The notes beneath the pieces were generated by a model. That model saw nothing but the letters and a program-made list of their open reading frames with translations. It was not told where the DNA came from and did not search any database. From positions 39,804,001 to 39,868,000 of the forward strand of contig OZ024746.1 in NCBI GenBank assembly GCA_964016885.1: a stretch of DNA of 64,000 nt. The letters run 5' to 3'. This DNA is from Eledone cirrhosa. Its lineage: Eukaryota. A program made the translations under genes and the position numbers. Positions 15,283-16,000 of the stretch are shown piece after piece (the stretch's first letter is position 1; each line of letters starts with the position of its first letter).

Positions 15283-16000
15283 ACAGATATCCACGGTAAG
15301 TTGTGGGGTCTAGTCTGCATGAAGAACTCAATGTAATCCATATGTTGAAAATGTTGTAGGTTAAAATAAATTCCGGAAAACAATAAAACATTAAAAGGAA
15401 AACAGAGTCATGATATAAGTTAAAACAATGAAATAAAAAATCAAGTCATTAGAAATATACTTCACTGCTTTACGATCGTTTCTAGGTGATGATAATTCGT
15501 CGTAACTATACTTCGATATCGATCTCAACATTTAATTTTTATATTCCTTTTAAACTTTACTATACCATATACATTCAACTATCAATTTGACAATCCCTTT
15601 TTTCCTAATATATTTTTTTATGGCAATTCTGTTATTAACACCATTCAACCATTCCTTTCAAAGGGTCATGACCTCAACTAGAGTGAATTATTTTTCATCT
15701 TAACATCATATGGAATAAAACAATCTGATTGGTTAGTTCATCAACTACCTCCAAACAAGGTCATAGAACTAAACATAATACTAATTTACTACTAATTTTG
15801 AATAAAATTATTATTGCTTTTGACAACAGCTGGTGATATGCATGTAAGTAAATATTCTCTTTATCTGATATTTTGTAACTAACCTTACATAGATCGATAT
15901 CGAAGTATAGTTACGATGTACTACCATCGCCTAGAAACGATCGTAAATCAGTGAAGTATATTTCTAATGACTTGATTTTTTATTTCATTGTTTTAACTTA
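15283..16000. mobile_element. Family C-related island with ~110-bp inverted arms and tail
   Basis: About 15413-15524 is the reverse complement of about 15890-16001; shares atgaagaactcaatgta, acagagtca and cgatcgtttctagg with 3072-3300. Confidence 0.8.
15811..15954 (+). ncRNA. Long-helix-II hammerhead, U3-A8 variant
   Basis: ttattgctt-TTGACAA-cagc tggtgat...atcgcc ta-GAAAC gatc GTA-aatcagtga; the inverted arm has aagcagtga, which fully pairs helix I. Confidence 0.65.

What the first reader, a model, noticed from the sequence alone, without database searches (positions are those of the whole stretch)
15811..15954. C3-G8 versus U3-A8 covariation within one long-stem HHR lineage
Seen: this island and 3072-3808 share tail motifs and cctaGAAACgatcGT. 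One has CTGAAGA-cggc and the other TTGACAA-cagc, and helix I differs in sequence yet still pairs. This is a second family showing U3-A8, apparently unrelated to family A. The covariation argues for selection on the fold.
Basis: partly seen in the sequence, partly recalled or inferred. Interest (0 to 1): 0.75.

Follow-up and report, generated by a model that had tools for sequence, protein, structure and literature searches.

The report
Penelope hammerhead hiding a splice donor
This is a decayed copy of a hammerhead ribozyme motif at the end of a very abundant Penelope-type jumping gene; its swapped core base pair is real but already published and arose once in this lineage, while its unusually long second arm is predicted to pair over a splice-donor-like site, which would let the element make either a ribozyme-free messenger or an unspliced copy template.

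Summary
Observation confirmed. 15811-15954 and 3591-3745 are homologous type I hammerheads in the pseudo-LTRs of sister Hydra-clade Penelope-like families (10,587 pattern matches in the genome, control 0). TTGACAA is positionally the CTGAAGA box. Mismatched cores are rare (79 U3.G8, 51 C3.A8) and mostly scattered single mutants. But U3-A8 is one change on the tree, so it is not statistical covariation, and it is published (Perreault 2011; Cervera 2014). Better evidence for the fold: double changes in helices I and II. This copy itself is decayed (z -0.45). The scan found this swap and long arm before on other DNA of this genome. New here: copies stop sharply 7 nt before the box, a likely transcription start. 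A donor-like GTATGT/GTAAGT/GTAAAT sits 32-36 nt later inside helix II and is predicted to be paired. A TAG is kept 35 nt before the ATG in 41 of 43 informative copies. Splicing between them would remove the cut site and most of the 7-13 upstream ATGs. Splicing is not shown: no RNA run was available, and no genomic copy with the short segment precisely removed was found.

The parts
15526..15810 (+). End of the 3' UTR of a clade B Hydra-type PLE, 5'-truncated
   Evidence: window 15526-16000 aligns end to end with the region downstream of the broken ORF in L069
15813..15813 (+). Inferred RNA start, 7 nt before the box (TCATT in most subfamilies, TTATT here)
   Evidence: cluster of 5' ends at -9 to 0; 1,730 C-type copies with a non-C at -8; inference
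15811..15819 (+). Hammerhead helix I, 5' strand
15820..15826 (+). Core box UUGACAA (U3, A8)
15827..15933 (+). 107-nt helix II rod: C.A mismatch, 2 bp, C.C mismatch, long stem, donor-containing stem, apical internal loop and hairpin
15844..15853 (+). Two overlapping donor-like sites, GTAAGT (15844) and GTAAAT (15848; the position homologous to GTATGT of clades C, D, E)
   Evidence: sequence; use untested
15865..15895 (+). CTGAT ... TACATAGATC: branch-like motif and proximal AG (15891-15892), also the invariant apical GAU/AUC and UGUA/UACA pairs
15934..15945 (+). GAAA, minimal helix III within palindrome ACGATCGT, GUA triplet; predicted cut after 15945
   Evidence: hammerhead numbering from established knowledge
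15946..15954 (+). Helix I 3' strand, with G>T at 15948 in this copy
15955..15999 (+). End of the pseudo-LTR, followed by (TA)n(TG)n
15413..15525 (-). Inverted arm: 3' half of the hammerhead only (no core box) and pLTR end
   Evidence: 113 nt, 95% complementary to 15891-16003
15284..15412 (-). About 130-nt tail = start of the element's 5' UTR, ending in (TA)n
3072..3808 (.). Sister clade C insertion: perfect 300-nt inverted arms (3206-3505, 3509-3808) each with an intact C3-G8 hammerhead (box 3601-3607, donor-like GTATGT 3627, AG 3679-3680), plus tail 3072-3205 on the minus strand

Best explanation
This is a decayed end of a Hydra-clade Penelope-like retrotransposon whose hammerhead motif carries a once-arisen U3-A8 swap and a 100-nt helix II that is predicted to pair over a splice-donor-like site, so the RNA likely takes one of two fates: spliced into a ribozyme-free messenger, or folded and kept unspliced as the copying template. 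Shown: the motif, its place in the pLTR upstream of an 813-aa RT/GIY-YIG ORF, one origin of U3-A8, double changes in helices I and II, sharp 5' ends 7 nt before the box, and no genomic copy with the short segment precisely removed. Inferred: transcription starts at -7. U1 binding at +32 to +36 would join a short first exon to the TAG 35 nt before the ATG (intron 342 nt in one clade B copy, 422-435 nt in C), removing GAAA, the cut site and most upstream ATGs. If helix II zips first, the donor is hidden, the RNA stays unspliced, and two hammerheads would pair through the ACGAUCGU palindrome and could cut, probably with help from the element's protein. Confidence by step: identity of the element 0.95; core still catalytic in active subfamilies 0.7; donor used at all 0.55.
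For: Full-length tandem copy L135: hammerhead, 494-nt leader, ORF with Hydra motifs. One change for U3-A8, support 100/99. Mixed cores 79 and 51 of 10,587. 97.6% of cells paired, 7 of 21 pairs with double changes across 14 representatives; slid controls 25-53%. A donor-like hexamer at +32 to +36 in 13 of 14 representatives (GC variant in the 14th), partner always downstream of the proximal AG; mean pairing probability 0.99-1.00 in C, D and E1, 0.45-0.80 in B. The donor strand stays GTA(T/A)(G/A)T while the stem below it is wholly replaced between B, C/D and E. TAG before TTGAGCTC or a near variant in 41 of 43 informative ORF starts from B, C and D, with variable bases before it; leaders have 7-13 ATGs, 0-2 after the long splice. 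Precedents: D. virilis Penelope has a 75-nt intron 46 nt after its start that is needed for expression; Chlamys-3_cRei has a 398-nt intron from pLTR into the body. Unrelated short-armed hammerhead families here also carry GGTATGT upstream of the box.
Against: No splicing was seen in any data. The base-paired rod alone explains why the motifs are kept, and its apical pairs never covary. Conservation at the distal site runs on into TTGAGCTC, which splicing does not need; it has no clear pyrimidine tract, and 2 of the clade B copies read TAA. In clade B the donor is only partly paired. Helix II opens with a C.A mismatch instead of G10.1-C11.1, and H17 is A or U. No copy among 290 examined began at the cut site (sample biased to intact motifs). 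In an anole PLE, ribozyme mutants did not affect insertion in vitro. Another family in this genome is reported by an unchecked scan note to have multiplied with a mismatched core.
Confidence: 0.5

Rival explanations
1. The long helix II is only a structural or protein-binding rod (for example a site for the element's RT), and the GT and AG motifs are incidental parts of its stems and internal loop.
For: All 14 representatives fold into a similar rod on their own; the invariant TGAT, TTTGTA and TACATAGATC make the apical pairs; a young C copy has z -5.82; PLE hammerheads can be protein-assisted; no spliced copy found.
Against: Does not explain why the donor strand does not covary like the rest of the stem, why it sits where Penelope has its donor, or how a leader with 7-13 ATGs and a cut site is translated.
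Confidence: 0.33
2. A short spliceosomal intron (41-54 nt) lies wholly inside helix II; splicing shortens the arm and gives a compact ribozyme.
For: GT...YTGAT...CATAG with the branch-like A 20-34 nt before the AG; length changes fall inside it; the spliced forms still allow the core fold.
Against: Donor-to-branch distance is only about 19-25 nt; I found no paper giving the minimal intron size in octopus (listings only). Splicing halves the predicted stability (C1 -46.5 to -22.0 kcal/mol). 0 precise losses among 4 short-insert copies genome-wide. No pile-up of 5' ends at the AG: 35 copies in all, 13 of 30 inspected being truncations. It would leave the cut site and most upstream ATGs (9 of 10).
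Confidence: 0.12
3. The hammerhead no longer cuts; U3-A8 is two drifted changes on a long branch and only the rod or promoter is kept.
For: One event on a branch of 0.34 changes per column; non-canonical 10.1.11.1; no cut-site footprint in 290 copies.
Against: The other core positions, GAAA and the helix III palindrome are unchanged across 15 subfamilies while N7 varies (these positions were partly required by my patterns); no dispersed mismatched subfamily; U3-A8 is an active pair.
Confidence: 0.05

Closest known systems
Hydra clade of C-terminal EN+ Penelope-like elements (Craig et al. 2021, PMC8557442; passages, section 11, supplement passages and part 2 of 59 read)
   Same: Single ORF with RWR, DKT, CxCX5C, CxxC, CxH, no CCHH; (TA)n targets; inverted 5'-truncated arms; tail; hammerhead in the pLTR, often with a mismatch at the base of helix II.
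   Different: Hydra rows of File S2 have C3-G8 and loop II of at most 9 nt; here helix II is 99-116 nt, one clade has U3-A8, 3' UTRs reach 3.4 kb, and Hydra-1_Obim is a different family.
U3-A8 minimal hammerheads of Schistosoma Cercyon PLEs (Cervera and De la Pena 2014, PMC4209133; parts 1-2 of 4 read) and natural U3-A8 cores (Perreault et al. 2011, PMC3088659; passages)
   Same: Same compensated core pair in a PLE pLTR; about 1,300 hits in S. mansoni; palindromic helix III for dimer folding.
   Different: Those have a 7-8 bp helix II with G10.1-C11.1; here a long rod opening with C.A.
Drosophila virilis Penelope 5' UTR intron (Schostak et al. 2008, PMC2377424; passages) and Chlamys-3_cRei pLTR-to-body intron (PMC8557442)
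   Same: Donor a few dozen nt after an internal start in the pLTR; intron kept in genomic copies; in D. virilis splicing changes the hammerhead's helix I end.
   Different: There the intron ends at the 5' side of the ribozyme or no canonical ribozyme is present; here the donor-like site lies inside helix II, so splicing would split the core. Those introns are shown by RNA; this one is not.
Poseidon PAc of Anolis (PMC11167929; passages)
   Same: Two fixed 3' ends defining a tail; C3-G8 pair tested; unprocessed RNA is the main template.
   Different: Different clade; ORF starts inside stem II; short hammerhead.

Membership tests
Type I hammerhead ribozyme | Box 3-9 and GAAA, NUH, with a Watson-Crick 3-8 pair | tested here: met
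   UUGACAA or CUGAAGA, GAAA, GUA or GUU
Type I hammerhead ribozyme | Helices I, II, III around the core, supported by covariation | tested here: met
   helix I 2 and helix II 5 pairs with double changes; helix III is one C-G pair in an invariant palindrome
Type I hammerhead ribozyme | G10.1-C11.1 closing pair of helix II | tested here: not met
   C.A mismatch in all 12 representatives; mismatches here occur in other Hydra hammerheads and in active natural ribozymes
Type I hammerhead ribozyme | Match to an Rfam hammerhead model | tested here: not met
   0 hits at gathering score in the window; the long insert is the likely cause (inference)
Type I hammerhead ribozyme | Self-cleavage | not testable with these tools
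   no assay; no copy of 290 began at the cut site
Hydra-clade PLE | Single ORF, RT then C-terminal GIY-YIG | tested here: met
   813-aa ORF in L135 with MGS.DSA...RDD and YKC...YIG; clade B ORF pieces 57-83% identical; Pfam gave no hit at E 0.1
Hydra-clade PLE | RWK-like, DKT, CxCX5C, CxxC, CxH; no GxKF/Y, DKG or CCHH | tested here: met
   against the definition
Hydra-clade PLE | pLTR, inverted truncated arm, tail, (TA)n target | tested here: met
Hydra-clade PLE | Placement in an RT tree with reference Hydra elements | not tested
   no reference proteins were aligned; similarity judged by eye
PLE 5' UTR spliceosomal intron | Donor shortly after the start, acceptor before the ORF, both conserved | tested here: inconclusive
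   motifs conserved but also explained by structure
PLE 5' UTR spliceosomal intron | Spliced RNA observed | not testable with these tools
   no run on record as RNA

The most novel reading that the evidence does not exclude
A natural splicing-ribozyme switch: the 5' splice site of a retrotransposon's leader intron is built into helix II of its hammerhead, so splicing cuts the ribozyme in half and frees a capped, translatable mRNA, while folding of the long arm blocks the donor and reserves that RNA as template. This would explain why Penelope-like elements keep their introns in every genomic copy and how their mRNA escapes its own ribozyme.
Probability: 0.35. Interest if true: 0.72.

Novelty: new variant of a known kind. 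Interest (0 to 1): 0.42.

Why it matters
The core swap adds little: it is a known pair and a single event here. What could matter is the layout. Two open questions about Penelope-like elements are why introns survive retrotransposition and what the hammerhead does. Here a likely start site, a donor-like site inside the ribozyme's arm and a conserved acceptor-like site before the ATG give a direct RT-PCR test in a family with thousands of young copies. I did not find a donor or intron inside helix II of a hammerhead in the papers I read or in the listings of searches; this is not a full literature review, and Lunse et al. 2017 (recalled) was not available.

Tried and rejected
Rfam: 0 hits. Pfam on the ORF: 0 hits. 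Sequencing runs: no RNA holder listed. Contigs of four runs laid on the C pLTR and tail and of two runs on the 5' pLTR to ORF start showed no GT-AG joint; run kinds are unknown and contigs show presence only, so this is no evidence either way. A loose end of run X4 two bases before the donor could have been a chimeric splice, but its sequence had no exact match in the genome: unresolved. Genomic copies lacking the short intron: 4 short-insert hits, none a precise GT-AG loss; L173 is also an imprecise deletion. Long-splice copies: 0 of 43 informative ORF starts, from a sample of 47 rows against 508 matches. Pile-up of 5' ends at the proximal AG: suggested by 3 of 5 clade B copies, not supported in clade C. 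Cap-derived G at -8: 29 of the first 100 listed (counted by eye), some explained by palindromic junctions; not established. The minus-strand 'DYIEFF' frame that I first took for the ORF start is 5' UTR. A second GTATGT in the clade C leader is missing in B and in several D copies. Sequence look-ups in earlier findings returned nothing.

Full report
Observation. The window holds a type I hammerhead layout at 15811-15954: helix I 5' strand, TTGACAA (15820-15826), a 107-nt insert, GAAA (15934), C-GATC-G, GUA and helix I 3' strand. The 3072-3808 island holds the same layout twice, on 300-nt perfect inverted arms, with CTGAAGA and a 116-nt insert. Helix I fixes the register, so U3 and A8 stand where C3 and G8 stand. 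Rfam misses both. The pattern YTGANRACRGC N30-140 CCTAGAAACGATCGT matches 5221+5366 places in the genome, control 0. The window copy is decayed: G>T at 15948 and changes in helix II give a fold no better than shuffles (z -0.45), against z -5.82 for the young copy at 3591-3745.

What carries it. Longer stretches show both motifs at the 3' ends of sister retroelements. L135 is a full tandem unit: 5' hammerhead, 494-nt leader, an 813-aa ORF, a long 3' UTR and a 3' hammerhead. The ORF has RWR, DKT, CxCX5C, CxxC and CxH and lacks GxKF/Y, DKG and CCHH, the definition of the Hydra clade. Clade B ORF pieces are 57-83% identical to it. The shared tail is the first 130 nt of the 5' UTR; copies tend to end at the pLTR end or at the tail end, next to (TA)n, as described for PLEs. 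The 15284-15999 island is a head-to-head pair of 5'-truncated ends, the minus arm holding only half a ribozyme.

The covariation. U3-A8 cores number 628 with one tail pattern; all 100 listed rows belong to one group, clade B. Mismatched cores are 79 (U3.G8) and 51 (C3.A8) of 10,587, spread over subfamilies as single mutants, apart from 7 neighbours on contig C10. A tree of 43 copies from 15 subfamilies, picked from 149 distinct copies, needs one change for U3-A8 (100/99; 5 mismatched rows uncounted; the two core columns were in the alignment; midpoint root). C3-G8 is probably ancestral, since clades C, D, E and the published Hydra rows have it; that is inference. One event cannot give significant covariation. 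The pair is known: natural U3-A8 cores and about 1,300 in Schistosoma PLEs. Stronger support for the fold comes from the helices. Over 14 representatives, 97.6% of cells pair; 2 of 7 helix I pairs and 5 of 7 helix II pairs change on both sides; slid controls give 25-53%; the count of double-changed pairs alone is reached by 136 of 500 shuffles, and the sequences are related. Three unrelated stem sequences (B, C/D, E) keep the same opening: C.A, two pairs, usually C.C, long stem.

The long arm. Each representative folds into a similar rod of 99-116 nt. The tip has invariant GAU/AUC and UGUA/UACA pairs around an internal loop; these never covary. Hydra hammerheads in Craig's File S2 have loop II of at most 9 nt. 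Earlier notes of this scan report long arms in this genome several times, one for what looks like this same family pair.

Start site and splice-like signals. 5' ends cluster just before the box: in clade B 14 copies end at -9 to 0 against 24 over the 260 nt before, and -7 is the mode in B, C and D (loci overlap in part and were chosen for intact motifs). 1,730 C-type copies are intact from -7 but lack the C at -8. The A at -7 lies in TCATT, an initiator-like word (recalled consensus). Counting from it, a donor-like hexamer falls at +32 to +36: GTATGT in C, D, E; GTAAAT, and in three subfamilies also GTAAGT, in B. It pairs with sequence beyond the tip, almost fully in C, D, E and partly in B. 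Two acceptor-like sites follow. The proximal CATAG would give a 41-54-nt intron. The distal TAG, before TTGAGCTC about 35 nt upstream of the ATG, is present in 41 of 43 informative ORF starts (47 rows, 4 truncated, 2 clade B copies with TAA). Leaders have 7-13 ATGs; the long splice would leave 67-72 nt with 0-2 and would remove GAAA and the cut site. D. virilis Penelope has a required intron 46 nt after its start and Chlamys-3_cRei a 398-nt intron from pLTR to body.

What is not shown. No run on record as RNA was available. No genomic copy lacks the short segment precisely and none of 43 shows the long splice; PLEs keep introns, so this neither supports nor refutes splicing, but it shows that the copied RNA is unspliced. 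Structure alone can explain the motifs. No cut-site footprint was seen in 290 copies, and in an anole PLE the ribozyme was dispensable for insertion in vitro and needed the protein to cut.

Mechanism. Most likely the RNA starts at -7 and either is spliced from the donor in helix II to the acceptor before the ORF, giving a capped mRNA without a ribozyme, or folds the arm, hides the donor and stays whole as template, where two hammerheads could pair through ACGAUCGU and cut. The element's identity and the fold are shown; start site, splicing, switching and cleavage are inferred. Overall 0.5, against 0.33 for a purely structural arm, 0.12 for a short intron only and 0.05 for a dead ribozyme.

Papers seen: PMC4209133, parts 1-2 of 4; PMC8557442, passages, section 11, supplement passages and part 2 of 59; PMC3088659, PMC2377424, PMC11167929, PMC3846280 and bioRxiv 10.64898/2026.07.22.740005, passages only. 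Lunse et al. 2017 is recalled and was not held. Supplementary figures of Cervera 2014 were not seen and may show long-armed variants.

Verdict. The layout of start, donor and ribozyme arm is a new variant worth one RT-PCR. Interest 0.42.

Noticed in passing
window 12598-12653 (+): Short-armed U3-A8 hammerhead (TTGATAA, box at 12610) between 71-nt direct repeats, retrozyme-like; unrelated in sequence to clade B, so probably a separate origin of U3-A8. A third U3-A8 type lies at L039:374.
   Followed up: partly
window 11817-11889 (-) and 8558-8630 (-): Two copies of a short-armed PLE hammerhead family, one with a U3.G8 mismatch; this and related families carry GGTATGT 27-52 nt upstream of the box, and some have TACTCCAG downstream, so the whole ribozyme could lie in an intron.
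   Followed up: partly
window 5816-6448 (+): GIY-YIG endonuclease end of another Hydra-type PLE.
   Followed up: no
window 18167-22716 (-): Near-complete non-LTR retrotransposon with ORF1, AP endonuclease and RT frames.
   Followed up: no
window 7859-8392 (+): Mariner-type transposase fragment.
   Followed up: no
window 3072-3205 and 15284-15412 (-): The tail keeps TACATTGAGTTCTTCAT across clades B, C, D and E just before the fixed end of copies; a likely recognition element for copying.
   Followed up: partly
L135:6503-6575 (-): Clade C leader has a second GTATGT...TGATTTTGTAA...ACATTTAG module resembling the one in helix II; the published Hydra-1_Obim leader starts with a similar GGTATG...TGATCTTGTAAC.
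   Followed up: partly
G000:C10:37301711-37587138: Seven neighbouring copies share a U3.G8 core, six of them also AG>CG at the proximal acceptor; likely local duplication of a dead unit.
   Followed up: partly
L063:8952-9111: A contig of organism B matches the box and the GAAA end but has 83 different letters between: a relative with another helix II sequence.
   Followed up: no
L063, L064, L135: Clade C has a 3.4-kb microsatellite-rich 3' UTR and an asparagine/lysine-rich stretch in the ORF, like the N-rich inserts of Adineta Penelope elements.
   Followed up: no
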